IMG/VR virus record: IMGVR_UViG_3300042989_000017
Direction: 5' to 3' (one strand)
From: an uncultured virus (IMG/VR IMGVR_UViG_3300042989_000017)
Lineage: Duplodnaviria; Heunggongvirae; Uroviricota; Caudoviricetes
DNA: 64,000 bases
Position numbers and translations under genes: made by a program. Of this stretch, positions 2,642 to 59,804 are shown in pieces; the stretch's first letter is position 1, and each line of letters begins with the position of its first letter. The notes beneath the pieces were generated by a model, which saw only the letters and a program-made list of their open reading frames with translations, searched no databases and had not been told where the DNA came from.

Positions 2642-3385
2642 TTGAAGACTATGAAAGATTTAATTACGGCTACACCTCCTCAGGTTACTATGACAAGTCT
2701 TGAGCTTGTTGAGTACATCAATAGTCTGCGTGATGGAGATGCGGCTCTTTTAACCCATGCCGACTTCTTGAAGAAAGTGCCCAAAGTCTTGAGTGAAAAA
2801 GATACAGGATTTTTTTCCGACATCTATTTCGACACTTACGGTCGAGAGCAGCGTTGCTATAAATTTCCCAAGCGCGAAGCCTGCCTTATGGCTATGTCTT
2901 ATAGTTATGACCTGCAAGCTAAGGTTTATGATTACATGACGGCTCTGGAGAATAAGATCACCGATACTACGCCGAAGTTATCTATCTTAGATTCCGCTCG
3001 TAACACCTTCGACAACGCTCTCCATTTTGCCAAACTCTTTAACCTTGAAGGTAATCAAGCCCTTCTTGCCGCAGATAAGGCCACCGCAAGACACACTGGC
3101 TTTTCCCCTATGAAGTTCATGCAAATTGAACTCGTCAAAGAAGAGCAGTGCTTAAACCTTACAGCAACTGAGATCGGTAAGGAGTTGACACCGCCTTTGT
3201 CTGCGATCAAAACAAACCTCCTTCTCCAAAACCAAGGCTTCCAAGAGAAGTTAGGTGCTGCTTGGAGTCCAACCGAGAAAGGTAAACCTTTTGCTGTTTT
3301 CTTAGATACAGGGAAGAAGCACTCTGACGGCACCCCAATCACACAACTGAAATGGTTGTCTTCGATTATTAAACACCTCACCTAA
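2642..3385 (+). CDS. Phage antirepressor/regulator (Rha-like N-terminus, KilAC-like C-terminus)
   Basis: MTSLELV...HADFLKKV...Y.FPKREACLMAMSYS N-terminal pattern; C-terminal TATEIGK...W.PTEKGK. Confidence 0.8.
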   Translation: MKTMKDLITATPPQVTMTSLELVEYINSLRDGDAALLTHADFLKKVPKVLSEKDTGFFSDIYFDTYGREQRCYKFPKREACLMAMSYSYDLQAKVYDYMTALENKITDTTPKLSILDSARNTFDNALHFAKLFNLEGNQALLAADKATARHTGFSPMKFMQIELVKEEQCLNLTATEIGKELTPPLSAIKTNLLLQNQGFQEKLGAAWSPTEKGKPFAVFLDTGKKHSDGTPITQLKWLSSIIKHLT

Positions 3386-37850: not shown

Positions 37851-38195
37851 TCAGTCTTCGCCGTAGACGTTTAACGGTGAAGACGGTGAAGACGGTGAAG
37901 ACGGTGAAGACGGTGAAGACGGTGAAGACGGTGAAGACGGTGAAGACGGTGAAGACGGTGAAGACGGTGAAGAATCCTCTTTGAACAATTCGGGGAAAGA
38001 TGCCCCGATCTCAAGGCAGACCGCCGAATAATCGGCGTAAAGGCGCGGCAAGCCTTTACAAACCCCACTTGTGTGGGGAATAGGGTGTAGTACCGCACCC
38101 CGCCAATCTTTGACGCTCAAGAGCGTCAAAGATTGGCCATAAATGTGACCTGTAACGGTTTTGCCGTCTTTTAAGACAACTGTGAAATCACTCAT
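37851..38195 (-). CDS. Hypothetical protein with (SSP)11 tail
   Basis: GGAG..TTAAAATG leader; the tandem repeat is in frame. Confidence 0.55.
   Translation of the reverse strand: MSDFTVVLKDGKTVTGHIYGQSLTLLSVKDWRGAVLHPIPHTSGVCKGLPRLYADYSAVCLEIGASFPELFKEDSSPSSPSSPSSPSSPSSPSSPSSPSSPSSPSSPLNVYGED
37874..37972. repeat. Perfect 9-bp tandem repeat (ACGGTGAAG)x11
   Basis: Counted directly, 99 bp. Confidence 0.97.
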
Positions 38196-38360
38196 TTTAA
38201 AAATCTCCAAAATAAAAAAAAGTAGGTTAGCCGTGTCCTTCATAACTGTCACGACTTGCATGATTGAGTTAGAAATCTCATGCGGGATTCCGTTCAGCGT
38301 TATGCGCTGATAGCTTAACTCAAAACTAACCGCTTTTGCAGAGTCTAAACGCTGGCGCGT

Positions 38361-38774: not shown

Positions 38775-39047
38775 GGGGGTAAAAATAAAACTAGTATTTT
38801 TAGACAAAGTATGAGTTGTACAAAAAATGAGCGAAAAATAAAAAAAATAGGGTATTGACATTTCTCGTTTGTACATTTTTTGTACAGCAAAATCTTATAA
38901 AAAAGGTTAGGAAGCGGTACATTTTTTGTACAGAAAGTCGAGAAAATCGCTCAGTTTCTATACAGTTAATATACAAGTGTATAGAAACTATTGCTTAAAA
39001 AATAGGCACTTCACACTTTTGACAAAAATGCTAGTTTTATTTCACCC
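38775..39047. repeat. AT-rich element with imperfect terminal inverted repeats and internal repeats
   Basis: AAATAAAACTAGTATTTTT (38783-38801) / AAAAATGCTAGTTTTATTT (39024-39042); GTACATTTTTTGTACAG at 38871 and 38917. Confidence 0.7.
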
Positions 39048-39916
39048 TATTTTTTAGGTGGAAACTTGAGTGGGCAAATCTCTGACTATCTATAGCAAAT
39101 TTTTAATTGGTGGTTTTTCAGTTTTCGGATTGTTAAAATGCGGCGATTTAAGGCGTGTCTCAAGGGTTAGGGTATAGTCGGATACCTTTTTAGCTTTTAC
39201 TAGAGCTTAAACGCGATTTTGGAGCGTATAGGCTGCTTTTGCAGAGGTCATTTTAGGGCTGTTTGCCATTGGTGCGATACTGGTAACGGTATCGGGCTGT
39301 GGAAACGGGCTGTTTTTACGGTTTCGGACTGGGTCGAAGGGGGTTCTAAAGCTGTGTTAAGAAGACACCTGTCTAATATACAGCTTTCCAAAAGACTTTC
39401 ACTAATAAGAAAAAAGCCATATTTTAATTTCTTATATTTTTCTAAATTCTCTATTTTTTTCCCAATGACATCTTTTTTTTTTCTCACATATCAGGTAGGT
39501 GTTAAAAACACACAAAAATTTATTACTCGCTTTTACCGCTTAAAACAATTAACCCTACTGGCTATTTTGCCGCGTTACCCGTTACTACTTATGGCCAAAC
39601 TGTCTCACCTAAACGGCAACCGTTACCTGTCACCTTTACGGCTTGGGTTAAAGAGTTAGGAAAACGTAACCGTTACCCGTTACTAGCTACTGACAAAAAG
39701 TTTTGAAAAACTGCTAATTCGCGGTCTCAAAAATATTTTGAAGAGCCTGTGGTTCGCGGTCTTATCAGTAAACGGGTAACGTGTACCGATAACAGTAAAC
39801 GGTAAGACCGCCCCCATTACCCCGTCAAACGTCCTACGTTCACGTTTAAGCCGCGTTAAAACGTGAAGATATAGGTGAGTGCAGGTAACGTGCTGTTAAA
39901 ACGTAAACAAGCAAAA

Positions 39917-39951
39917 CAAAAAGCCTAACTAATTAAAGTATAGGCTTTTTG
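39917..39951. terminator. Bidirectional intrinsic terminator
   Basis: CAAAAAGCCTA/TAGGCTTTTTG with U-tracts on both strands. Confidence 0.65.
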
Positions 39952-40037
39952 TTGTTACCTTTACCATTAAACGCCTTAGAGCAGCGTTTAATGGTAAAGG
40001 TAAAAGAGTCACTTAGTAACTCTTTTACGGTCTTGAG

Positions 40038-40769
40038 TTACGCGGCCTTAACGGCGCGTAACTCAAGAATCAGTGAAAACTCAACAATGAGGGCTTGCAA
40101 GCCCTCATTGTTGAGGGTAGCGGCGGCGGCACGGATGACGCCTAAAGCGTCAAAGTCGGCGGCGACGTTTAGCGCGTCAAACGCGCTAAACAAAGGGAGG
40201 ACATCGTCCTCCCATTCTTGAGAGGCCGTTTTAACGGCCTCTTTTACCCCTTGTGAGGCCGTTAAAACGGCCTCACAGAAGGTGGCCAACGTGTCGCCAT
40301 CCGTAGACACGGACGGCGCGGGGATTGCATCAAGCCGCGCCTTGTGCGCGTCTTGTTCCATTTTGGCCGCGCTTTTAAGCGCGGCCTCCCTGCCTTGACC
40401 AATGAGGGCTTTTACACCCTCACTGGTTAAGCCACCAGTGAGGTGTTGGTACACCTCACTGGCCTCTAGGACCTTGCTTTTAGGGAGGGCTTGCACACCC
40501 TCCAGGGTCTCTATTGAGACCCCTTTTCCTGACTTAATCTCTTTGATTGCTACTGCAATCAAAGAGATTGAACGGCCTTGCACAAGGCCGTTTAATTGGA
40601 CGGCTGTCACGCCGTCCAACACGTTTTTTAGCTTGGCACTAAGTGCCAAGTCTAAAGAAAGGGGGTTATTTTTAACCCCCTTAGCAAAGGCTGTTAAAGC
40701 ACTGGCAGATTTGCCAGTGTTTGACGCATTGGCAAGAAACGCCAACACGCCTTGAGCGGTTAATTTCAT
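40038..40769 (-). CDS. 243-aa Ala/Leu-rich hypothetical protein whose coding sequence is tiled with hairpins
   Basis: AAGGAA RBS and AAAATG start as in the other early genes; about 20 inverted repeats inside the ORF. Confidence 0.7.
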   Translation of the reverse strand: MKLTAQGVLAFLANASNTGKSASALTAFAKGVKNNPLSLDLALSAKLKNVLDGVTAVQLNGLVQGRSISLIAVAIKEIKSGKGVSIETLEGVQALPKSKVLEASEVYQHLTGGLTSEGVKALIGQGREAALKSAAKMEQDAHKARLDAIPAPSVSTDGDTLATFCEAVLTASQGVKEAVKTASQEWEDDVLPLFSAFDALNVAADFDALGVIRAAAATLNNEGLQALIVEFSLILELRAVKAA

Positions 40770-40789
40770 TTTAACAATTCCTTAACAAA

Positions 40790-41555
40790 GTATTCGATAT
40801 TGAATACCTTAAAAAGCCTAACATAAGCCTTTTAAGGTATCACACTCACGTCTAACTATTAGCGTGAGTGTGAAAATACTTGGGACAAAGTGCTGATATT
40901 TTACCCGTCACTTTGTCTCTTAGCTAGTCAGCCCTTAAAGCCTTTCGCTTTAATAGCTATACTCTCACCTATCGTCAAATTATGACTGTACCGCGTGAGT
41001 TGCAGTGTATTACAGTGTGTGGAGGGGCTTGCCAAGCGACAATCACTAACTGCATATAACATCTAGTTTTTACTTGTCTTGTGTCAGTAATAGACACGAC
41101 TCACCCTAAGAACAGGGTTTTAGTAACGGCACTAAGAAAGCCGTTTTTCTTCTATCGTGTTCTGTTCTTAGTAGTTAGCTGCCTTCATTTTGTTACCCAA
41201 TGGTAGCAATCTGAGTAAATCAGATCCCGTAACGGGATCAACTGGCTATTGTCGCCGCTCTCACGAACGACATACTTTTGCACAAGATTGCCAAAACAAT
41301 CCACCACTAACAGCATGGTGTCGTGGTAATCATTTACTTCGTACATAGTCTTAGTCTCTTAGTAGTTAGTTTATCTATGCACTAAAACAATGCACAGATT
41401 GCTAACCACTAAGAACAGAACACGATAAACTGTTAAAGAACACGTTAGGCCATCAATAGTTGCCTAACTCTTTATACTGCTAAGTGTATGATATTATCAC
41501 ACACTTAGCAAGTATGCAATTGTAACTGTTTGTAAGTGTTACAATCGCATCCATA
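40790..41555 (-). ncRNA. Large structured leader/ncRNA candidate (~770 nt)
   Basis: More than 15 local hairpins plus a 27-bp long-range helix 41153-41179/41401-41427; no ORF; begins at the predicted sigma54 start. Confidence 0.55.
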
Positions 41556-41565
41556 CAGTACATAA

Positions 41566-41582
41566 TGCAGTTACCATGCCAA
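41566..41582 (-). promoter_or_regulatory. sigma54 (-24/-12) promoter
   Basis: TTGGCATGGTAACTGCA = GG-N10-GC. Confidence 0.7.
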
Positions 41583-41597
41583 GTATGCAATATATCG

Positions 41598-41610
41598 TAA
41601 GTCGTTGATT
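41598..41610 (-). promoter_or_regulatory. IHF binding site
   Basis: AATCAACGACTTA matches WATCAANNNNTTR, about -43 to -55 from the predicted start. Confidence 0.7.
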
Positions 41611-41654
41611 TATATGGGGTTTATTTTAAGGTGTTTTTCTTGACACTGTAAAGA

Positions 41655-41751
41655 CGTTACCTTGTAACGGTATATGTGTTACCTAGGTAACACAATGTGT
41701 TACCGAAGTGTTACCTAGGTAACACTTTTAAGAGTTGTAACATACGTTACA
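41655..41751. promoter_or_regulatory. Palindromic enhancer-like (UAS) sites
   Basis: TGTGTTACCTAGGTAACACA (41675-41694) and AAGTGTTACCTAGGTAACACTT (41706-41727), plus weaker GTTAC/GTAAC dyads. Confidence 0.6.
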
Positions 41752-41930
41752 CGTTATGTAATGAAGGCATACCGTTACACTGTGACAGTGTAGACTGACA
41801 AGGGGCATACCTTAATATAGGGCTAACAGCCACTATCTCGGGTGCTGTCCCAAAAGTACCCGTGTTAAAAAATTTCGATTTACAAGGTGCGATTCTCACA
41901 TAAATAGAAAAGGATTCGGCAACCGTATCT

Positions 41931-42002
41931 CGTTTACGGCAACAGAGTCCTTAGAGCTTTTACTTTTACTTTTACTTTTACGTTTACGGCAACAGAGTCC
42001 TT
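41931..42002. repeat. 22-bp direct repeat flanking (CTTTTA)4
   Basis: CGTTTACGGCAACAGAGTCCTT at 41931 and 41981. Confidence 0.85.
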
Positions 42003-42073
42003 CAAAACAAACCGTTTAGCTATCCAACCTAACCCCCCATCTCCAGAGCCCTTATTCCCTGCCCCCTCAAGCC

Positions 42074-43060
42074 TCAAACCTCAAACCTCAAACTTTTCCG
42101 TCCTCGTATAGCCTCCCGTTTCACAACTCCCGAACCCAACCCACCCCCCTTAAAGCTCTCCTTTAAACCTTTCCCCTCCCCTGTTGAGCTTCTTTTTACC
42201 CAGTGGCGAGGGTTCAAATCTAAATAGTCTGTCATGTCGCAGATGTTAAGCCAATTTTTACCGAACAATAGCTTTTTCACATCTTCATCTCGACCCTTAA
42301 ATATTAAACGCCCTCTAGGGTACTTCCAATAGCCTGTCTGTCTGCTGTAACCCCAAGACCCCCAAGACCCCCCAAAGAACCATTTTCCCGAAGTGGGGTT
42401 AAAGGTCTCCACTAACGGAAAACCAAGCTCAATCAGGTTAGGGGTCTTCTTTAACTTCGCTAAGTTCGGGAGGATTGATGAACCCCTCTCAGCCTGCCTC
42501 ACGAACACAGAACCTAAGCTGTCATTATCCAAAACAGGAAAGAATAAACCCCCTTGTTGGATTAACCATTTGAGGGCGTTTGCCGACTCTCGTACCCCTT
42601 CCGCAAGCCTCTCTGGAGTGACTTCTAAAGGGTGTATCTTCTCAAAAACCAGTTCAGCGAGGTCAAGATTCTCAAGAAGGTAGTCTCCATTAGGGAATAA
42701 AGTACAGAGGTTCTGTAAATGTTTCTTTAAGGCTATACCCCTTTTGGCTTCAGGAGCAAAAGTAAAGTCCTGCCCACCTATAACCAGTTTTCGCTTCAGT
42801 AAAACAGCAATCATCTGCCTTACAGAGACGTGTGGGCTGTGAGACATAATTGTTGTTAAAAGAGATTGTCTTTTTACTAGCTTTACCTGCATCACCAGCT
42901 CGCGGCTCAAATCTTCCGATAACCGAGGCACGACTTGGATTAACTCCAAACGGGTCATAGCTGCTATTTTGGATACCTCTGTAGGGATAAGCAGGTTTGA
43001 GTCAGCTCGCTTCGGCCCCCGTTTCTTCCCTGCAACTAGTTCGTTTTCTGCTAATATCAT
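42074..43060 (-). CDS. Hypothetical basic protein
   Basis: 328-aa ORF with GAGGA RBS. Confidence 0.65.
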   Translation of the reverse strand: MILAENELVAGKKRGPKRADSNLLIPTEVSKIAAMTRLELIQVVPRLSEDLSRELVMQVKLVKRQSLLTTIMSHSPHVSVRQMIAVLLKRKLVIGGQDFTFAPEAKRGIALKKHLQNLCTLFPNGDYLLENLDLAELVFEKIHPLEVTPERLAEGVRESANALKWLIQQGGLFFPVLDNDSLGSVFVRQAERGSSILPNLAKLKKTPNLIELGFPLVETFNPTSGKWFFGGSWGSWGYSRQTGYWKYPRGRLIFKGRDEDVKKLLFGKNWLNICDMTDYLDLNPRHWVKRSSTGEGKGLKESFKGGGLGSGVVKREAIRGRKSLRFEV

Positions 43061-43075
43061 GGCTTTCCTCTTCCG

Positions 43076-43807
43076 TTACGGCTTTAAGAAGTCTTCTGGT
43101 GAGACTAAACCACCTACTTTTGGCTTATAACCGCCCCACTTTGAGGCGTAATGGCTTCCCTCAAGGCGCACAACTGCACAAAGTTCCGATATATCCCCGA
43201 AATTTATCGTCTCATATACCGTTTTAGCCCAAAATTTAAGCAAACTCAGCTCGTGAAGCCGTGTCATTTCCTCGGGTCTGACCAGTGTTTTAAGGTACTG
43301 GCCATGCAGGGGTAAGGTGTCTTCCTCATCCAAAACCATGATTAGCGGCCTTAAACGAGGCAACCGAGACAGTTCCCGTAGACTTTTACCCCCAAGTTTC
43401 AAACTTTTGGCTGAAACCAAGACTGGTAGGAGGTTCGTTTTCGTTAAAACAGACCGAAAATCGGTAAAACCCATCGCAAACGGCTCTCGTGTGTGGAAAA
43501 CAATCGGCTCTTCGTCCACGATAACGACTGGCGGCAAATCTCCCAGTTCCTCTAAGTAAGGTATCGGCAACAGAGGGCGAACTCGTCTATAGCACTCGAT
43601 GTCGAACTCGCGCCAGAGGTTTTCGTTGATGTTCTCCAGCATCATGTTACTGATTTGTAACAGAGAAGGCATCCCTGTAAGCCTTCTAAAACCCTGACTT
43701 GCGAAATTAGGGGTTAAAGGTACTACTGCATGGCCGAGGTTTAAACGGACTGAGCCTGTTTGGAAGTTAATTTCCACGCCACTCCCTAAATGCTCTTGGG
43801 TTCTCAT
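43076..43807 (-). CDS. Hypothetical protein
   Basis: 243-aa ORF, ATGA-coupled to the primase gene. Confidence 0.65.
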   Translation of the reverse strand: MRTQEHLGSGVEINFQTGSVRLNLGHAVVPLTPNFASQGFRRLTGMPSLLQISNMMLENINENLWREFDIECYRRVRPLLPIPYLEELGDLPPVVIVDEEPIVFHTREPFAMGFTDFRSVLTKTNLLPVLVSAKSLKLGGKSLRELSRLPRLRPLIMVLDEEDTLPLHGQYLKTLVRPEEMTRLHELSLLKFWAKTVYETINFGDISELCAVVRLEGSHYASKWGGYKPKVGGLVSPEDFLKP

Positions 43808-46248
43808 ACACTACCCCCTTTCTTAACAGGCAACCCTACCCCGTGGTAAACAGCCGCACCCGTAGCTTCATTCATTTCAATCTCAAACCCCATGCTTAGG
43901 CTGAGTTCTCTCATGCGTAGGCGGAACTCGCCAATGTTCATCATCTTGACTGAGCCGTGGGTTAATGCCCAAGACCAGAAAATCTCGTAGACTCTCTTCT
44001 CAGGGATTTGCGCGTTAGGTGTGAACGACAGCTCGTTTGAGTTCTTAACAAAAGCTCTTACGATATTGTTAATACACGCCATCTCCTCCATAATCTTGGT
44101 GTGCGACCTTGGTAAAGTATAGCCTTGCTGCGCTAACACTCTTGGCATAGCTTGGATCGCCCACGCTGTAATCATCTCGCGTTCCTGTAAAATAATTTTT
44201 CCTGCGATGTCGAGTTCGATTTTAGAGTCGGGAACGGGTCTGTTGAAGGTTAAAATTAACCAACGGCGGTTAAAGCCCTCGCTTGAGTCCTTCGTCTTTG
44301 GCAGCGGGTTAGAGCCAAACCAGTGTGTAGCTGTGATTTGCGCTCGAAACGGATCGCCATAAGGTTTACGGCAGGTGATCTCAGACCCGTCCATAATCTC
44401 TTTAAACTTCTGGCCGTCAATTCGCTTCTCCTCAGACAACTCCCCCGCGATGTTCAGCAGCTTGCCTACCATGTGGGCGGGCGAGTAGGGGTCTCCCCAA
44501 GCGTTCGGGCTTACCGCAGACCTTGCCTCATCGCTGACTAGCGCACTCGCAATACTGAGCAACTGGCTTTTACCTGACTTGGCCACGCCTTGCAGTAAGA
44601 TAACCTTCTGGAACTTGCTTCCCCAACCAAATAATGTCACCAAGAGAGCTTCCTGTAAGGCTTGAACCTTCTCCATAAAGTCTGAATCACCGCCCCAGCA
44701 CGTCTCTAAAAAGTCGGAGAACAGCGGCGCATCGTGGTGAAGATTAACCCCCCCTGCTGAAGCGATATAGCGAAACGGTAGCGTGTACATCATCCCGTAC
44801 TCAGGTTTGTGGGGCAGCAATTCCAGTTTGTCAGTTAGGAAACCGTTGACGAAGTTCACACCTTGCAGGTGAGATTTTTTTATCTCTTGAGGGCTTAAAC
44901 TTTGCATCAATTCCAATATGCCTTTCAAGTCACCGTTGCGCCTTGCCGCGTCGTAAGTCCCGTAGTTTTGGCTGATGTGGCGAATAAGCCAAGCATCCCT
45001 GATGGTCTCCCAATGGCTGCCGTTGAACTTCCAGAAATCCCCTTTATCGAAAGCGAAATCGAAAAGCACCTCCATGTCCTGTAACACTGCTTCGGCAATC
45101 TCTGAATGGTTTGCGCCAGCCATGCCGTCTTCTTTTCTCGTCTCATTTATCTGTTTATTGAGGGTGCCAATCTTGACCCCCAGCCCGCTCTCCTTAACAA
45201 TCAAGCTTAGAATTCTATCTACTTCCATACGATTTAAATTTTTGGAGTGAGCCATCTTGCGTAGAATCTTATCTGTGGCTTCCATACTTATGGTTGTACC
45301 TAACCCCTCATCTTGGGTGAAAACCTCCTTTAAAAAATCAACAATCTCAATGCACCGCCACTCTTCGGTATCTCGGTCAAAGTTAATGTTCAGGTTTTTC
45401 TTTTCTTCGTCGGATAGTCCTGTGTCCCAGCCTTCAGGCAGGATTTTCTTCTTTTCCATTACATCACGAGTCAGGAAACGAATCAGGTTACGCTTATGTT
45501 TCTCAATATCCATTGAATCGCCAACGACGTTTTGGATAAACTCATTTGCGTAAGACTGTAGCATTCCTAACGCTTCCAGCAGCGTTCTCTCACCACGCAT
45601 TACCGCCATAGCAAACAGTCCCGCCTTCTCCGTCAGGTTTGTATCACGACTTCCCGAGCTAACATACTCCGTCAACTTTGAATGGCCACTGCGGGACAGA
45701 ACGATACCGTAATTGCTTATTACCGCCCTGAGTTTTTCCTCAATGTCGGGTTGGAGTTTCGGCAAGGAATCGACAACCGTGAACAGGTCGCAGTTTGCCG
45801 TGTACGGTAGTTTCGTCTCAGGGTGGATGGAAGCAGGTAAAACAACCTGCGTTTTCTCAGACAGCAGTTCGCAAATTGTCTCACCAGTCGCCGCTTTAAT
45901 GCGGAAAGTTTTCTGCCCACTGTAAGCGTAAGCGAGAACCTTACCCTTCTTACCGTAGCGTATCCACGGTGATTTCGGCAAAGCTTCTTCAATCAGCCGA
46001 ATTAGGCTTTCATCAGTCGTGTCGATGTCGAGGGCGATAACCCGCGACTGTTTGCCAAGAGGTAAGCCGATGTTACCGTTCGGGTATTGCTTCAGCCAGT
46101 TTGTTCGCGTTTGTTCGTCAGGCATTGAATCGTGAAAATTCTGCCAGCCTAGCGGCACTGGCACCTTCGCCATAGAACGGAGAGGGATAACAGGCATACC
46201 TGCTTTCCAGTAGTTCGGAGCGGTATCAGCAAAGATATTTTTGGACAT
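43804..46248 (-). CDS. Primase-polymerase fused to a D5/P4-type SF3 helicase
   Basis: VIPL....K.P...W, GNIG...LDID, LPASIHP; G.AKSGKS, GEL, D.S.GF.RR. Confidence 0.92.
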   Translation of the reverse strand: MSKNIFADTAPNYWKAGMPVIPLRSMAKVPVPLGWQNFHDSMPDEQTRTNWLKQYPNGNIGLPLGKQSRVIALDIDTTDESLIRLIEEALPKSPWIRYGKKGKVLAYAYSGQKTFRIKAATGETICELLSEKTQVVLPASIHPETKLPYTANCDLFTVVDSLPKLQPDIEEKLRAVISNYGIVLSRSGHSKLTEYVSSGSRDTNLTEKAGLFAMAVMRGERTLLEALGMLQSYANEFIQNVVGDSMDIEKHKRNLIRFLTRDVMEKKKILPEGWDTGLSDEEKKNLNINFDRDTEEWRCIEIVDFLKEVFTQDEGLGTTISMEATDKILRKMAHSKNLNRMEVDRILSLIVKESGLGVKIGTLNKQINETRKEDGMAGANHSEIAEAVLQDMEVLFDFAFDKGDFWKFNGSHWETIRDAWLIRHISQNYGTYDAARRNGDLKGILELMQSLSPQEIKKSHLQGVNFVNGFLTDKLELLPHKPEYGMMYTLPFRYIASAGGVNLHHDAPLFSDFLETCWGGDSDFMEKVQALQEALLVTLFGWGSKFQKVILLQGVAKSGKSQLLSIASALVSDEARSAVSPNAWGDPYSPAHMVGKLLNIAGELSEEKRIDGQKFKEIMDGSEITCRKPYGDPFRAQITATHWFGSNPLPKTKDSSEGFNRRWLILTFNRPVPDSKIELDIAGKIILQEREMITAWAIQAMPRVLAQQGYTLPRSHTKIMEEMACINNIVRAFVKNSNELSFTPNAQIPEKRVYEIFWSWALTHGSVKMMNIGEFRLRMRELSLSMGFEIEMNEATGAAVYHGVGLPVKKGGSV

Positions 46249-46292: not shown

Positions 46293-46829
46293 CTAGATCG
46301 CGCCGTAAATTTCTTCGTAATCCGCCACTACTTTGCGTAGGGTTTCTTCAATGTTGTCAGGCAAAGGTTTTAAGCTTGCCTCATAAAGTGGGTAGTTTTC
46401 AACGTAAGGTTGCAAGCTCGTCGGGTGTAAGCTTGGAGCTAGAGCAAGCTGTCTGCGGTTTGAGATCAACTCGCACACCACCTTGCCTGCCTTGCTTTTG
46501 ATGAGGAAAGGGGCTGTGTGGTTAAACTTGAATGCCAACGCTTTACCTTTGTGGCCACAGCGTATCCACGAGGTTGTGCCTTCTAAAGCTGTTTGGATGA
46601 AAGCTGAAAGGTCACAGTTAACGTCGATGTCCAAAACCTCGATGCCTGATACCTCACCAAGTAACAGGCCAATGTTACCGTCAGCGTAATCGGTTAGCAG
46701 TTGCGGGTCTTGAGAAGGCGTTTGCCAGTTAGTAACAGCGGGAATTTTACTTGCTTTGTTTAGTGGGATTACAGGTAAGCCAGCGTTCCAGTAAGCAGGG
46801 GCTGTATTTGCAAAAATGTTGTTTATCAT
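46293..46829 (-). CDS. Stand-alone Prim-Pol domain, paralog of the primase N-terminus
   Basis: NIFANTAPAYWNAGLPVIPL vs NIFADTAPNYWKAGMPVIPL; GNIG, LDID, PSLHP. Confidence 0.8.
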   Translation of the reverse strand: MINNIFANTAPAYWNAGLPVIPLNKASKIPAVTNWQTPSQDPQLLTDYADGNIGLLLGEVSGIEVLDIDVNCDLSAFIQTALEGTTSWIRCGHKGKALAFKFNHTAPFLIKSKAGKVVCELISNRRQLALAPSLHPTSLQPYVENYPLYEASLKPLPDNIEETLRKVVADYEEIYGAI

Positions 46830-51206: not shown

Positions 51207-51280
51207 TGGCAGCGAGGGACGGAATCAAACCGCCTTCTTCGGTTTTGGAGACCGAGGTAATATCAATATACGACCAAGCT
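51207..51280 (-). tRNA. trnW: tRNA-Trp(CCA), atypical
   Basis: TCGGT-CTCCAAA-ACCGA anticodon arm, GGCGG-TTTGATT-CCGTC T arm, 3' GCCA; two acceptor mismatches. Confidence 0.75.
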
Positions 51281-58944: not shown

Positions 58945-59661
58945 TTAAGCGTTTAACACACTCTTTTTCCATTTGTAATTATAGCCACTCTTGTTTCCGA
59001 CAACCCATTGGTGGCGAACCGCAAAAGGTTTACCTTTATCAGTTGGTACCCACTCACTGTTGATCTTCGCCTGAAAGCCTCTTTCTTCTAACCATTGGTT
59101 CATTTTAACTGCTGTTAAACCTAAGCGTTTACCTAACTCGGTTGGCTCTACGGCTTCGTCTTCTAATCGGATCATGCCTTGAGCAGGAGCCAGTCGTAAC
59201 ATTTCGGTGAAATCAATGTGGTAAGTTAGTCTCGCACCTTTCACGGCTTCTACCTGTGCGAGATGGATTGGCACCTCGAAGAGGGTGGCTAACTGCATCA
59301 CCGCAGTAATGTGGTTAAGAGCCAAGTCGGTAGGGGTTCGAGGAAGCACAGGAGCGGAGGAGGCGGTGAGAGTTTTCAACTTCCCTAAAACAGTACGCCG
59401 AACAGCTTTAGATCCGCGCATTGACACTAACATACATTGGTCTTCTGTTAATTTAAAAACAGTTGACTCAGTATTGTTTGAATTTTGCACTACGAAACTT
59501 TCGTAGTGGTCTCCTTCAAGTTCATCCTGAATACGCGAGATAAAATCATTTGCCCTAATAACTTTTTCACCATGCTGTAGGCGAGCATTGTTTACGAGTT
59601 CCAGTAAGTCACGGCTGGACATAGTTGAGGTTGTTGCAGTTAAATCTTTCATCATCTTCAA
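58945..59661 (-). CDS. Second phage antirepressor-like protein (KilAC-like C-terminus)
   Basis: MSSRDLL...DF..RI.DEL, Q..LV.MR.SKAVR; PTELGK...W.PTDKGK, as in 2642..3385. Confidence 0.8.
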   Translation of the reverse strand: MKMMKDLTATTSTMSSRDLLELVNNARLQHGEKVIRANDFISRIQDELEGDHYESFVVQNSNNTESTVFKLTEDQCMLVSMRGSKAVRRTVLGKLKTLTASSAPVLPRTPTDLALNHITAVMQLATLFEVPIHLAQVEAVKGARLTYHIDFTEMLRLAPAQGMIRLEDEAVEPTELGKRLGLTAVKMNQWLEERGFQAKINSEWVPTDKGKPFAVRHQWVVGNKSGYNYKWKKSVLNA

Positions 59662-59670
59662 ATCCTAGAA

Positions 59671-59752
59671 ACAGAAAAGCCGTATTATCATAAGCTAGGC
59701 AGTGGAGGGTTAAGTGTGGAACCCAACTAGCAAGATAAAACGGCTTTTCTGT
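59671..59752 (-). ncRNA. C4/CI-like antisense RNA or attenuator hairpin, copy 2
   Basis: ACAGAAAAGCCGT/ACGGCTTTTCTGT, GCTAG/CTAGC, GGGTT/AACCC; unpaired ACACTTA and CCACTGC complement upstream TAAGTGT and GTAGTGG. Confidence 0.7.
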
Positions 59753-59804
59753 ACACTTAAAATACCCAATGTCTCGCCACTACGCTACCCATCAGATGTT
59801 TATA

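What the first reader, a model, noticed from the sequence alone, without database searches (positions are those of the whole stretch)
39955..40769. Protein-coding gene built almost entirely of back-to-back hairpins
Seen inside and just past the 243-aa ORF: a perfect 36-bp palindrome (40080-40115) and stems at 39955-40003 (20 bp), 40031-40068 (13), 40167-40191 (11), 40195-40213, 40221-40242, 40252-40277, 40365-40386, 40435-40462 (12) and 40536-40569 (15). Further stems: AACGGCCTTG/CAAGGCCGTT, TTGGACGGC/GCCGTCCAA, CTTGGCACT/AGTGCCAAG, CACTGGCA/TGCCAGTG. No other gene in the window looks like this. Inference: dual selection on protein and nucleic-acid structure, e.g. an mRNA shielded from RNA-targeting defence or RNases, a dsRNA/cruciform decoy, or DNA that is transiently single-stranded near a genome end. 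The phage also encodes an SbcCD-like nuclease, a family known to cut hairpins.
Basis: partly seen in the sequence, partly recalled or inferred. Interest (0 to 1): 0.88.

Follow-up and report, generated by a model that had tools for sequence, protein, structure and literature searches.

The report
Phage gene saturated with perfect palindromes
A genuine protein-coding gene of a freshwater phage, lying where related phages carry their terminal repeat, is half made of short perfect DNA palindromes, most likely written in by fold-back copying errors; whether the hairpins do anything is still open.

Summary
There are 17 perfect hairpins (stem >=8 bp, loop <=10) in 39955-40719, against 29 in the other 63 kb. 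The ORF (40038-40769, minus strand, 243 aa) has 14, against 0.8 in synonymous-codon shuffles (RNA folding z = -15.3; 16 ordinary genes average -1.5, minimum -4.0).

The ORF behaves as a real gene. Its codon usage is typical of this phage. Strain variants show 10 synonymous and 10 conservative nonsynonymous codon changes.

By gene order it matches the single ~175-280 aa gene inside the 1.5-2.3 kb direct terminal repeat of JWF-, Seuss-, Lumi- and EAb13-like siphophages. GTTACC-type repeats flank it on both sides. Ten such counterpart genes have 0-5 hairpins (z +0.7 to -4.2), so the saturation is specific to this lineage.

The palindromes are Watson-Crick only and fold equally well on both strands. 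No stem sequence recurs elsewhere in the window. They turn over between near-identical strains.

Best reading (about 0.45): repeated fold-back template-switch mutations in a tolerant gene. Main rival (about 0.3): the hairpins are kept because the transcript benefits from them.

Earlier scan findings of palindromes inside genes concerned dispersed mobile repeats. That explanation was tested here and does not fit.

The parts
40038..40769 (-). 243-aa ORF that carries the hairpins. It is coding-like and all-helical at low confidence, with no detectable relatives.
   Evidence: ORF; codon score 0.43 per codon against 0.18-0.55 for 21 confident genes; the other five frames score -0.06 to -0.71; G at codon position 1 is 44%; 10 synonymous and 10 nonsynonymous codon changes in strain variants; no Pfam, PHROG, tblastn or protein-database relatives. 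AlphaFold2 pLDDT 42.
40779..40783 (-). AAGGA ribosome-binding-site-like motif, 9 nt before the ATG at 40769
   Evidence: Read directly.
40950..40978 (-). Promoter-like TTGACG-17 nt-TATTAA, found by eye and not flagged by the scan tool
   Evidence: Read. One search did not list it because its last -10 base is A. This is an inference.
40804..40873 (-). Two hairpins in the putative 5' leader: 40804-40840 (17-nt arms, 88% complementary) and 40840-40873 (11-bp stem, 12-nt loop)
   Evidence: I5, I16; both pair in the MFE fold.
40080..40115 (.). Perfect 36-bp palindrome encoding LNNEGL|QALIVE, with its centre on a codon boundary
40167..40277 (.). Four back-to-back hairpins: 40167-40191, 40195-40213, 40221-40242 and 40252-40277. 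The last two share the arm GAGGCCGTT/AACGGCCTC.
40365..40462 (.). Hairpins 40365-40386, 40418-40443 and 40435-40462. The last two share an arm (a-a'-a arrangement).
40536..40719 (.). Six hairpins: 40536-40569, 40571-40592, 40596-40619, 40632-40650, 40659-40682 and 40700-40719
40031..40068 (.). Hairpin overlapping the stop codon. The TAA stop is the reverse complement of the in-frame TTA in the opposite arm.
39915..40028 (-). 3' trailer with three hairpins: 40000-40028, 39955-40003 (20-bp stem) and the terminator-like 39915-39953 with flanking A and T runs
39574..39890 (.). Downstream repeat cluster: GTTACC/CGTTAC-type repeats (7 GTTACC/GGTAAC sites in kb 39-40) and two TTCGCGGTCT copies at 39718 and 39753
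   Evidence: The same motifs stand in tandem in relatives L004 and L013.
41570..41727 (.). Upstream repeat cluster: 8 GTTACC/GGTAAC sites in kb 41-42, including the GTGTTACC-N-GGTAACAC palindromes at 41675-41694, 41686-41704 and 41706-41727
   Evidence: A matching palindrome lies at L004 7514-7545.
38877..42073 (.). ORF-poor 3.2-kb stretch downstream of the primase block. By gene order it corresponds to the long direct terminal repeat and its surroundings in relatives.
   Evidence: The boundaries in this phage were not mapped.

Best explanation
The 243-aa ORF is a real, translated gene. It is the counterpart, by position, of the single mid-sized gene that JWF-, Seuss-, Lumi- and EAb13-like siphophages carry inside their long direct terminal repeat, between two clusters of GTTACC-type repeats (a probable replication or packaging control region).

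In this lineage its DNA has been rewritten piece by piece into perfect short inverted repeats. The proposed cause is fold-back (intra-strand) template switching during DNA synthesis: the new strand briefly copies itself or the opposite strand, which makes or re-perfects a palindrome in one event.

On this reading the palindromes persist because the all-helical, Ala/Leu-rich protein tolerates them. Only events that keep the frame, avoid stops and give acceptable codons survive. The locus is prone to misalignment errors in the whole phage group; relatives show tandem low-complexity repeats at the same place. No dedicated hairpin function is needed.

Shown: the density, the strand symmetry, coding status, lineage specificity and turnover between strains.

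Inferred: the template-switch mechanism, the terminal-repeat location in this phage, and neutrality.
For: Origin at the DNA level:
- Stems are perfect Watson-Crick with 0-10 nt loops.
- Sense and antisense RNA folds are nearly equal (-414.7 and -403.8). G.U pairs make up 6% and 5%, against 10-15% in 8 ordinary genes.
- Arms are shared between neighbouring hairpins (a-a'-a at 40418-40462; twin hairpins at 40221-40277).

One-arm, multi-base differences between strains:
- In run X3 the 36-bp palindrome differs at 5 sites, all in one arm (40098, 40104, 40109, 40112, 40113). None is listed in the other arm.
- At 40632-40650, X3 (a loose end from one contig) and X4 (indel pattern, depth 46) carry a different stem (TGGCGG...CCGCCA) centred on the same Leu codon. 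That is a multi-base compensatory change.
- At 40699, X3 and X4 have the paired base where the window has G.T.

Lineage-specific:
- 10 counterpart genes have 0-5 hairpins and z of +0.7 to -4.2.
- Their whole terminal repeats or gaps have 1.1-2.7 hairpins per kb, against 6.9 here.

Locus prone to misalignment:
- Counterparts carry hypervariable tandem repeats: DA/GA, EA, AADK, PTVDA, TVAD, ATTE and PA.

Real gene that filters the events:
- Codon score is 0.43. Both arms are codon-adapted (0.53 and 0.49, against about 0.03 for stop-free antisense of ordinary genes).
- Variants show 10 synonymous and 10 conservative nonsynonymous codon changes.

Published mechanism:
- Template switching can create perfect stems and multi-base compensatory changes in one event (PMC8794818, abstract and introduction read).
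- Quasi-palindrome mutations arise under high transcription in yeast (PMC3820800, abstract read).
Against: - Hairpins are confined to about 39915-40873, which matches one putative transcription unit. A neighbouring noncoding stretch that varies between strains (40928-41059, 10 listed differences) has none. A purely regional mutational process should also hit that stretch.
- The protein is under purifying selection. Sixteen or more multi-codon replacements fixed without any benefit is a lot.
- Both arms have good codons. That fits long co-adaptation as well as it fits filtering.
- 7 of 9 stem transitions between strains give G.U on the mRNA strand rather than A.C (hand count; one-sided p about 0.09). 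This hints at an RNA-level constraint.
One search lists 40 difference rows and withholds 115.
- Why this lineage alone is affected remains unexplained.
Confidence: 0.45

Rival explanations
1. Selected transcript structure. However they arose, the hairpins are kept because a messenger built as a chain of stable stem-loops benefits the phage. It might resist single-strand-specific RNases, toxin endoribonucleases or RNA-guided defence, or simply be long-lived, while ribosomes can still open it.
For: - The hairpin zone (39915-40873) coincides with the leader, coding region and trailer of one gene. It stops near the by-eye promoter.
- The ribosome-binding site and the first 12 nt of the ORF are unpaired in the MFE fold.
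- Both arms are codon-adapted.
- A hairpin sits at the same codon with a different stem in X3 and X4.
- 7 of 9 stem transitions give G.U on the sense strand (hand count).
- z of -15 is far beyond any other gene.
Against: - There is no strand asymmetry, and G.U pairs are scarce in this allele.
- 10 of 10 positional counterparts lack the structure.
- Listed strain differences fall in stems about as often as outside: 11 of 26 by hand count, where stems are roughly half of the sequence.
- There are no expression data. All available runs were DNA contigs.
Confidence: 0.3
2. DNA-level function in the terminal repeat or origin. The palindromes fold as hairpins or cruciforms when the repeat is single-stranded or supercoiled. 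They would act in end protection, recombination-dependent replication, priming, packaging or a T5-like injection pause.
For: - Watson-Crick-only perfect palindromes that are the same on both strands.
- The position between two GTTACC repeat clusters and, by gene order, inside or beside the direct terminal repeat.
- The phage encodes SbcCD-like proteins.
- T5's left terminal repeat holds a dense palindrome and inverted-repeat region tied to the injection stop (bioRxiv 10.1101/866236, passages read).
- Streptomyces telomeres are tightly packed palindromes (PMC4513846, abstract start seen in the search listing only).
Against: - Four characterised relatives with mapped terminal repeats, and six metagenomic ones, lack such arrays. 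An essential cis function for this phage group is therefore unlikely.
- The T5 region is untranslated and conserved in order across relatives. This one is translated and varies between strains.
- The constant noncoding flanks, which carry the repeat clusters, have few hairpins.
- The stems are short, which is marginal for cruciform extrusion (from general knowledge).
Confidence: 0.12
3. Not a protein-coding gene. On this reading it is a structured non-coding RNA or DNA element whose open frame is incidental.
For: - It is an orphan: only itself among 5.8 billion clustered proteins, and no shorter fragments.
- No Pfam or PHROG match.
- A profile of the positional counterparts does not detect it (E 2.3 and 3).
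- The structure model is poor (pLDDT 42; Atlas model pLDDT 0.46).
Against: - Codon score of 0.43 in one frame only, and G1 at 44%.
- 11 of 21 listed variant sites are at third codon positions. Codon changes are 10 synonymous and 10 conservative.
- A ribosome-binding-site-like AAGGA lies 9 nt upstream.
- A gene of similar size and orientation occupies this position in all relatives examined.
- No Rfam family reaches threshold.
Confidence: 0.04
4. In-frame insertions of a mobile palindromic repeat family, like REP or Rickettsia palindromic elements.
For: Translated palindromes inside genes are known from such elements. The scan's earlier notes describe several on other genomes.
Against: - All 16 or more stems differ in sequence.
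- A blastn-short search of 39915-40873 against the window found only 9 matches of 12-17 nt elsewhere, all with E >= 0.75.
- The hairpins make up the body of the protein rather than added loops.
Confidence: 0.02

Closest known systems
Template-switch (quasi-palindrome) mutations that create or perfect hairpins (Monttinen and Loytynoja 2022, PMC8794818; Kim et al. 2013, PMC3820800)
   Same: Both give perfect reverse-complement arms with short loops. Several bases change in one arm at once. Multi-base 'compensatory' changes occur. There is a link to strong transcription.
   Different: The published cases are single events in RNA genes or reporter genes. Here about 20 hairpins fill one 0.96-kb unit of a protein-coding phage gene.
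The gene inside the long direct terminal repeat of JWF-, Seuss-, Lumi- and EAb13-like siphophages (JWF gp002, Seuss gp003, Lumi_003, EAb13 CDS0121) and its metagenomic counterparts (L004, L013, L017-L020, P0003-P0014)
   Same: It has the same place (a few hundred bases to 2 kb downstream of the primase block), the same strand as the primase and a similar size (175-281 aa). The flanking repeat motifs are shared with L004 and L013. All are Ala-rich and end in K/T-A/V/G-A/T-type tails.
   Different: A profile built without the window's protein does not detect it (E 2.3). The counterparts carry tandem low-complexity linkers, not palindromes, with 0-5 hairpins each.
Injection-stop (iss) repeat region of the phage T5 left terminal repeat (bioRxiv 10.1101/866236)
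   Same: A siphophage with a long terminal repeat and SbcCD-like genes has a kilobase crowded with palindromes and inverted repeats inside that repeat.
   Different: The T5 region is untranslated, conserved in order across T5-like phages and carries DnaA boxes. This one is an ORF, is specific to one lineage and varies between strains.
Tightly packed telomere palindromes of Streptomyces linear replicons (PMC4513846; only the start of the abstract was seen, in a search listing)
   Same: Both have back-to-back palindromes near the end of a linear replicon that fold when single-stranded.
   Different: The Streptomyces palindromes are at the very 3' end, non-coding and work with terminal proteins. 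No terminal-protein genes were seen here. By analogy with relatives this gene should lie 0.6-1.3 kb from the end.
Rickettsia palindromic elements and intragenic REPs (named from the scan's earlier notes, and from recall)
   Same: Palindromic DNA is read through as protein.
   Different: Those are dispersed copies of one repeat family, inserted as extra loops. Here every stem is unique and none recurs in the window.

Membership tests
Mobile palindromic repeats inside genes (REP / RPE-like) | Several copies of the same element dispersed in the genome | tested here: not met
   only 9 chance-level matches (12-17 nt, E >= 0.75) outside the region. The stems all differ. Only the 64-kb window could be searched, because no whole genome is held.
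Mobile palindromic repeats inside genes (REP / RPE-like) | The element is an insertion relative to homologues without it | tested here: inconclusive
   No alignable homologue exists, so presence and absence cannot be compared.
Terminal-repeat gene of JWF/Seuss-like siphophages | Position and strand: first mid-sized ORF downstream of the primase block, in the ORF-poor repeat-bearing stretch | tested here: met
   Shared flanking motifs with L004 and L013.
Terminal-repeat gene of JWF/Seuss-like siphophages | Detectable sequence similarity to family members | tested here: not met
   A profile of 13 members without the query gives E 2.3 among 244 window ORFs. A C-terminal-only profile gives E 3, and an N-terminal-only profile does not list it among its best 27 rows printed. 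Pairwise hits are only weak: E 0.006-0.03 to L004, and 48% identity over 25 aa to EAb13 at E 0.01.
Terminal-repeat gene of JWF/Seuss-like siphophages | Lies inside a direct terminal repeat of the packaged genome | not testable with these tools
   Only contigs, not raw reads, were available. The repeat is documented for JWF (1,466 bp), Seuss (1,748 bp; and PMC4591317), Lumi (2,298 bp, PMC9959647) and EAb13 (2,177 bp).
Template-switch-derived hairpins | Perfect reverse-complement arms that are equal on both strands, with few G.U pairs | tested here: met
Template-switch-derived hairpins | Clustered multi-base differences confined to one arm, or matching changes in both arms, between close relatives | tested here: inconclusive
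   Seen at 40098-40113 (5 sites in one arm) and at 40632-40650 (alternative stem). But the table is truncated (115 rows withheld), and other stems show single uncompensated changes.
Known structured RNA families (Rfam 15) | A match at the family's gathering score | tested here: not met
   the only match in the window is a tRNA; sub-threshold chance hits only.
T5-type injection-stop repeat region | Untranslated, and conserved in order among relatives | tested here: not met
   It is an ORF with coding statistics, it is absent from relatives and it varies between strains.
Intrinsic terminator array | G+C-rich stem followed by a U run on the transcribed strand | tested here: not met
   8 terminator-like sites in 5 kb, against 6.0 +/- 2.6 in shuffles. 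Only 3 minus-strand hits lie inside the ORF.

The most novel reading that the evidence does not exclude
The gene is written in two codes at once. It encodes a protein while its messenger, or the single-stranded form of the terminal repeat, is deliberately a chain of about 20 perfect stem-loops. This would be an 'armoured' first-expressed gene whose structure shields it from single-strand-specific host nucleases or nucleic-acid-guided defence. Template switching would supply and repair the stems. This would be a new way for a phage to protect an early gene, and a natural example of template switching building functional structure inside a coding sequence.
Probability: 0.3. Interest if true: 0.8.

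Novelty: new variant of a known kind. Interest (0 to 1): 0.6.

Why it matters
I could find no described protein-coding gene with half of its bases in unique perfect hairpins. Two literature searches returned only single-event template-switch work and mobile-repeat cases.

If the palindromes are mutational, this is an unusually clear natural record of fold-back template switching reshaping a gene under purifying selection. It would also mark the terminal-repeat gene of a widespread group of siphophages as a hot spot for misalignment errors.

If they are selected, the locus shows that a phage can overlay a dense nucleic-acid structure on a coding sequence. That bears on mRNA stability, on evasion of RNA- or DNA-sensing defences, and on how terminal repeats are handled.

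Either way it is a compact test bed of 0.96 kb with natural alleles. Structure and protein can be separated by recoding.

Tried and rejected
Searches for relatives of the protein found nothing:
- Pfam and PHROGs.
- tblastn against phage records, and megablast of 39000-42000 against phages.
- The 5.8-billion-protein search at near lengths (only itself) and at shorter lengths (none).
- ESM Atlas (best score 0.85, below the lead level).
- AlphaFold2 on the single sequence gave pLDDT 42, so no fold search was run.

Searches for closer alleles with DNA found nothing:
- A 27-mer from the trailer in IMG/VR (none, so the window itself is not in that collection).
- The protein in IMG/VR (none).
- The neighbouring 328-aa protein in JGI metagenomes (4 loci, all about 39% identical) and in GTDB genomes (none).

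No whole genome is held, and the scan has no notes for this genome.

Homology to the positional counterparts:
- The profile search of 1.84 billion representatives used an alignment containing the query, so the query's own hit is circular.
- Profiles built without it do not detect it.
- The resemblance of ..TLNNEGLQAL.. to the family's ..DNDSLQAIL.. is therefore not evidence. The same goes for the idea that variant X3 (N220D, N221D, E222D) is the more ancestral form.

Contig depth as a sign of a two-copy terminal repeat:
- In all four runs laid, contigs within about 39.7-42.1 kb have about 1.5-4 times the depth of the flanks.
- The tool states that contig depth cannot be used this way, so it is not counted.

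An adapter-like loose end after 41754 in X3 (adapter identity recalled) is not evidence of a genome end.

Stretches without cover in X3 and X4 (about 40250-40440) may simply be too divergent or filtered out.

Two statistics did not reach significance:
- Frame preference of palindrome centres: 7 of 13 even-length hairpins are centred on a codon boundary, 5 one base on and 1 two bases on (hand chi-square p about 0.12).
- G.U bias of stem transitions toward the mRNA strand: 7 against 2 (hand count, one-sided p about 0.09).

The plus-strand ORFs 39949-40221 and 40402-40755 were rejected as genes. Their codon score is -0.06, and they stay open only because palindromes mirror the open minus-strand frame.

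One search timed out and was repeated in smaller form.
Full report
**What the window is.**
The 64-kb window is most of a siphophage genome. The ORF's protein is recorded on 2 contigs, the longer of 70,086 bases. The window carries DNA polymerase, an SbcC/SbcD-like pair, helicase, a P4-type primase, terminase, portal, major head, tape measure and tail genes. By primase similarity (35-48% aa) its nearest named relatives are Achromobacter phages JWF and 2-1, Xylophilus phage Lumi, Caulobacter phage Seuss and Acinetobacter phages such as EAb13. Nothing in the phage collection matches at the DNA level. Near-identical DNA occurs in freshwater metagenomes from several studies.

**The observation.**
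- With a strict definition (perfect stem >=8 bp, loop <=10 nt), 17 of the window's 46 hairpins lie in 39955-40719.
- The ORF (40038-40769, minus strand, 243 aa) holds 14. 200 synonymous-codon shuffles average 0.81 (maximum 4), and 200 codon-order shuffles average 0.12.
- Its RNA folding energy is -414.7 kcal/mol, against -274 +/- 9 (z -15.3) and -252 +/- 9 (z -18.9).
- 52% of its bases lie in hairpins with stems >=7.
- The same test on 16 ordinary genes of the window gives z of -1.5 +/- 1.4, minimum -4.0.
- In 120-nt DNA folds the region averages -35.4 kcal/mol, against -11.7 +/- 3.9 elsewhere.
- An independent run (X5) has two stretches of the same allele without a single difference, so this is not an assembly artefact.

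**Is it a gene?**
The protein has no detectable relatives and no confident fold. The DNA nevertheless behaves as coding.
- A codon-usage score trained on 21 confident genes is 0.43 per codon in the ORF's frame (training genes 0.18-0.55). The other five frames score -0.06 to -0.71. G at first codon positions is 44%.
- An AAGGA motif lies 9 nt before the ATG.
- Of the 21 single-base differences listed for strain variants X3 and X4 inside the ORF, 11 are at third codon positions. They change 20 codons: 10 synonymously and 10 conservatively (A/V, T/A, G/S, V/I, N/D, E/D, K/R). This fits purifying selection on a protein.
- The two plus-strand ORFs over the same DNA are mirror effects of the palindromes.

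**Where it sits.**
The ORF lies in the middle of a 3.2-kb ORF-poor stretch (38877-42073), downstream of the primase and two small genes.
- GTTACC/CGTTAC-type repeats cluster on both sides. There are 7 GTTACC/GGTAAC sites in kb 39-40 and 8 in kb 41-42, against about 0.5 per kb elsewhere. They include palindromic GTGTTACC..GGTAACAC sites at 41675-41727.
- Two TTCGCGGTCT copies stand at 39718 and 39753.
- The IMG/VR relatives L004 and L013 have the same order: primase, small genes, GTTACC palindromes, one 254-281 aa ORF, terminator, CCGTTACC repeats, then tandem copies of the same GAGACCGCGAA motif.
- In four characterised relatives this place is the long direct terminal repeat: JWF 1,466 bp, Seuss 1,748 bp (PMC4591317, whole text read), Lumi 2,298 bp (PMC9959647, passages read) and EAb13 2,177 bp.
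- Each repeat carries one 195-265 aa gene on the primase strand. The repeat's inner border is 158-532 bp upstream of that gene's start, and the physical end is 0.6-1.3 kb beyond its stop (hand arithmetic on those calls).
- By analogy the hairpin gene lies in the terminal repeat, roughly a kilobase from each genome end. This is an inference. Only contigs were available, so the ends could not be mapped.

**The counterparts.**
A profile search found a family of such genes (P0003-P0014, with L004, L013 and L009). They share a conserved N-terminal domain, a hypervariable tandem low-complexity linker (DA/GA, EA, AADK, PTVDA, TVAD, ED) and a conserved C-terminal helix.
- A second, G+C-rich clade (L017-L020; primase 50% identical) has the same plan, with ATTE or PA repeats.
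- The window's protein cannot be tied to them by sequence. Profiles built without it give E of 2.3 (whole length) and 3 (C-terminus) among 244 window ORFs. I therefore call it a positional counterpart only.
- None of the ten complete counterparts is hairpin-rich. They have 0-5 hairpins, with z of +0.7 to -4.2. An eleventh, L009, is cut by its contig end and was left out.
- Their terminal repeats or gaps have 1.1-2.7 hairpins per kb, against 6.9 here.
- The saturation is specific to this lineage.

**Nature of the palindromes.**
- They are perfect Watson-Crick repeats, equally foldable on either strand (sense -414.7, antisense -403.8). G.U pairs make up 6% and 5%, against 10-15% in ordinary genes.
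- All stems differ, and none recurs elsewhere in the window. This excludes a mobile repeat family of the kind the scan noted in other genomes.
- Neighbouring hairpins share arms (40418-40462; 40221-40277).
- Three copies of an EG[LV][QK]AL motif include the fully palindromic EGLQAL codons.
- Both arms are good coding sequence (5' arms 0.53, 3' arms 0.49, non-hairpin 0.42). The antisense of ordinary genes scores -0.2 to -0.5, or about 0.03 when stop-free. Only palindromes compatible with the frame have survived.
- No Rfam family fits.

**Variation between strains (contigs only, 40 of 155 difference rows shown).**
- The flanks 39088-39563 and 42323-43359 are identical in X3. In contrast 40008-41060 differs by 8-15%, and about 40250-40440 did not align at 80% identity.
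- Inside stems most changes are uncompensated: 40008, 40035, 40044, 40068, 40603, and five in one arm of the 36-bp palindrome with none listed in the other arm.
- At 40632-40650, X3 and X4 carry a different stem centred on the same Leu codon.
- At 40699 they have the paired base where the window has G.T.
- Hairpins are therefore old enough to be shared between alleles, are not protected from change, and are sometimes re-made. The noncoding stretch 40928-41059, which also varies between strains, has no hairpins.

**Reading.**
The strand symmetry, the perfect arms, the one-arm multi-base differences and the re-made stem all point to the DNA-level process described as template-switch or quasi-palindrome mutation. 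That process can create a perfect stem or a multi-base compensatory change in one event (PMC8794818, abstract and introduction read), and in yeast it is promoted by strong transcription (PMC3820800, abstract read).
- A terminal repeat is plausibly resected and used to start recombination-dependent synthesis in a phage with an SbcCD/Mre11-Rad50-like pair. This is general knowledge and was not tested here. It would give such errors opportunity.
- The tandem-repeat linkers of the counterparts show that the locus is prone to misalignment in the whole group.
- I put 0.45 on 'template switching plus tolerance, with no hairpin function'.
- The main rival (0.3) is that the stems are retained because the transcript benefits. 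The hairpin zone matches one putative transcription unit (promoter-like TTGACG-17-TATTAA at 40950-40978, by eye; terminators at 39915-40003). The start region is open. Multi-codon replacements in a constrained protein are hard to fix neutrally. Stem transitions lean toward G.U on the sense strand (7 of 9, not significant).
- A DNA-level role in the repeat or origin, with T5's injection-stop region as the nearest analogue (bioRxiv 10.1101/866236, passages read), gets 0.12. It is limited by the absence of hairpins in relatives.
- A non-coding element (0.04), mobile repeats (0.02) and artefact are unlikely.

**Novelty.**
The ingredients are known: template-switch hairpins, translated palindromes, repeat-rich phage termini. 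The combination is new to me: a gene under purifying selection with half of its bases in about 16 unique perfect hairpins, in one lineage only. The searches returned nothing that describes such a gene. I class it as a new variant of a known kind, with interest 0.6.

Noticed in passing
window 59702-59794 (-): ARAGORN calls a 93-nt 'tRNA-Stop' with anticodon TTA. Rfam finds only the tRNA-Trp at 51210-51280 at gathering score. It may be a false call or an odd suppressor-like tRNA.
   Followed up: partly
window 37851-38261 (-): This neighbouring 136-aa ORF carries a 17-bp perfect stem (38102-38137) and another hairpin (38037-38059). Its z is -5.0 against synonymous shuffles, the second most structured gene in the window. 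Its codon score is low (0.04).
   Followed up: partly
L004 8290-8520; L009 3' end; P0003-P0014; L018 and L020 counterpart genes: The positional counterparts of the gene carry hypervariable tandem low-complexity linkers (DA/GA, EA, AADK, PTVDA, TVAD, ATTE, PA). These differ even between close relatives, as in a microsatellite-like hot spot.
   Followed up: partly
window 39574-39890 and 41570-41727; L004 7514-7545 and 8790-9080: GTTACC-type repeat clusters bracket the gene, and GAGACCGCGAA-containing repeats stand in tandem (spaced 35 bp apart, 3-4 copies) in L013 and L015. The motifs are conserved across relatives whose proteins are about 37% identical. They are probably binding sites for a replication or packaging protein.
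   Followed up: partly
L017-L020, about 10.8-18.3 kb: In a G+C-rich sister clade a 20-22 bp perfect palindrome (core AAAAGTGCAATTGCACTTTT) recurs 3 times in L017 and 11-15 times in each of L018-L020, between early genes. It looks like a shared operator, promoter or terminator motif.
   Followed up: no
window 41957-41987 and 42065-42093: Short tandem repeats (CTTTTA x5, CCTCAAA x4) lie at the 3' end of, and just beyond, the 328-aa ORF 42074-43060. A direct repeat TTTACGGCAACAGAGTCCTT occurs twice at 41934-41996.
   Followed up: no
window 41676/41726 in run X4; 41754 in run X3: One X4 contig switches strand at the GTTACC palindromes. One X3 contig runs from 41754 into what looks like a library adapter (identity recalled). 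Both are probably assembly or library effects.
   Followed up: no
window 46293-46829 (-) and 43804-46248 (-): A separate 178-aa ORF upstream of the primase matches the N-terminal part of the same primase family (phrog_1156 positions 9-198). JWF has a similar 180-aa ORF in the same place.
   Followed up: no
window 2642-3385 (+) and 58945-59661 (-): Two anti-repressor (Ant)-like genes are present, in a phage otherwise without obvious lysogeny genes in the window.
   Followed up: no
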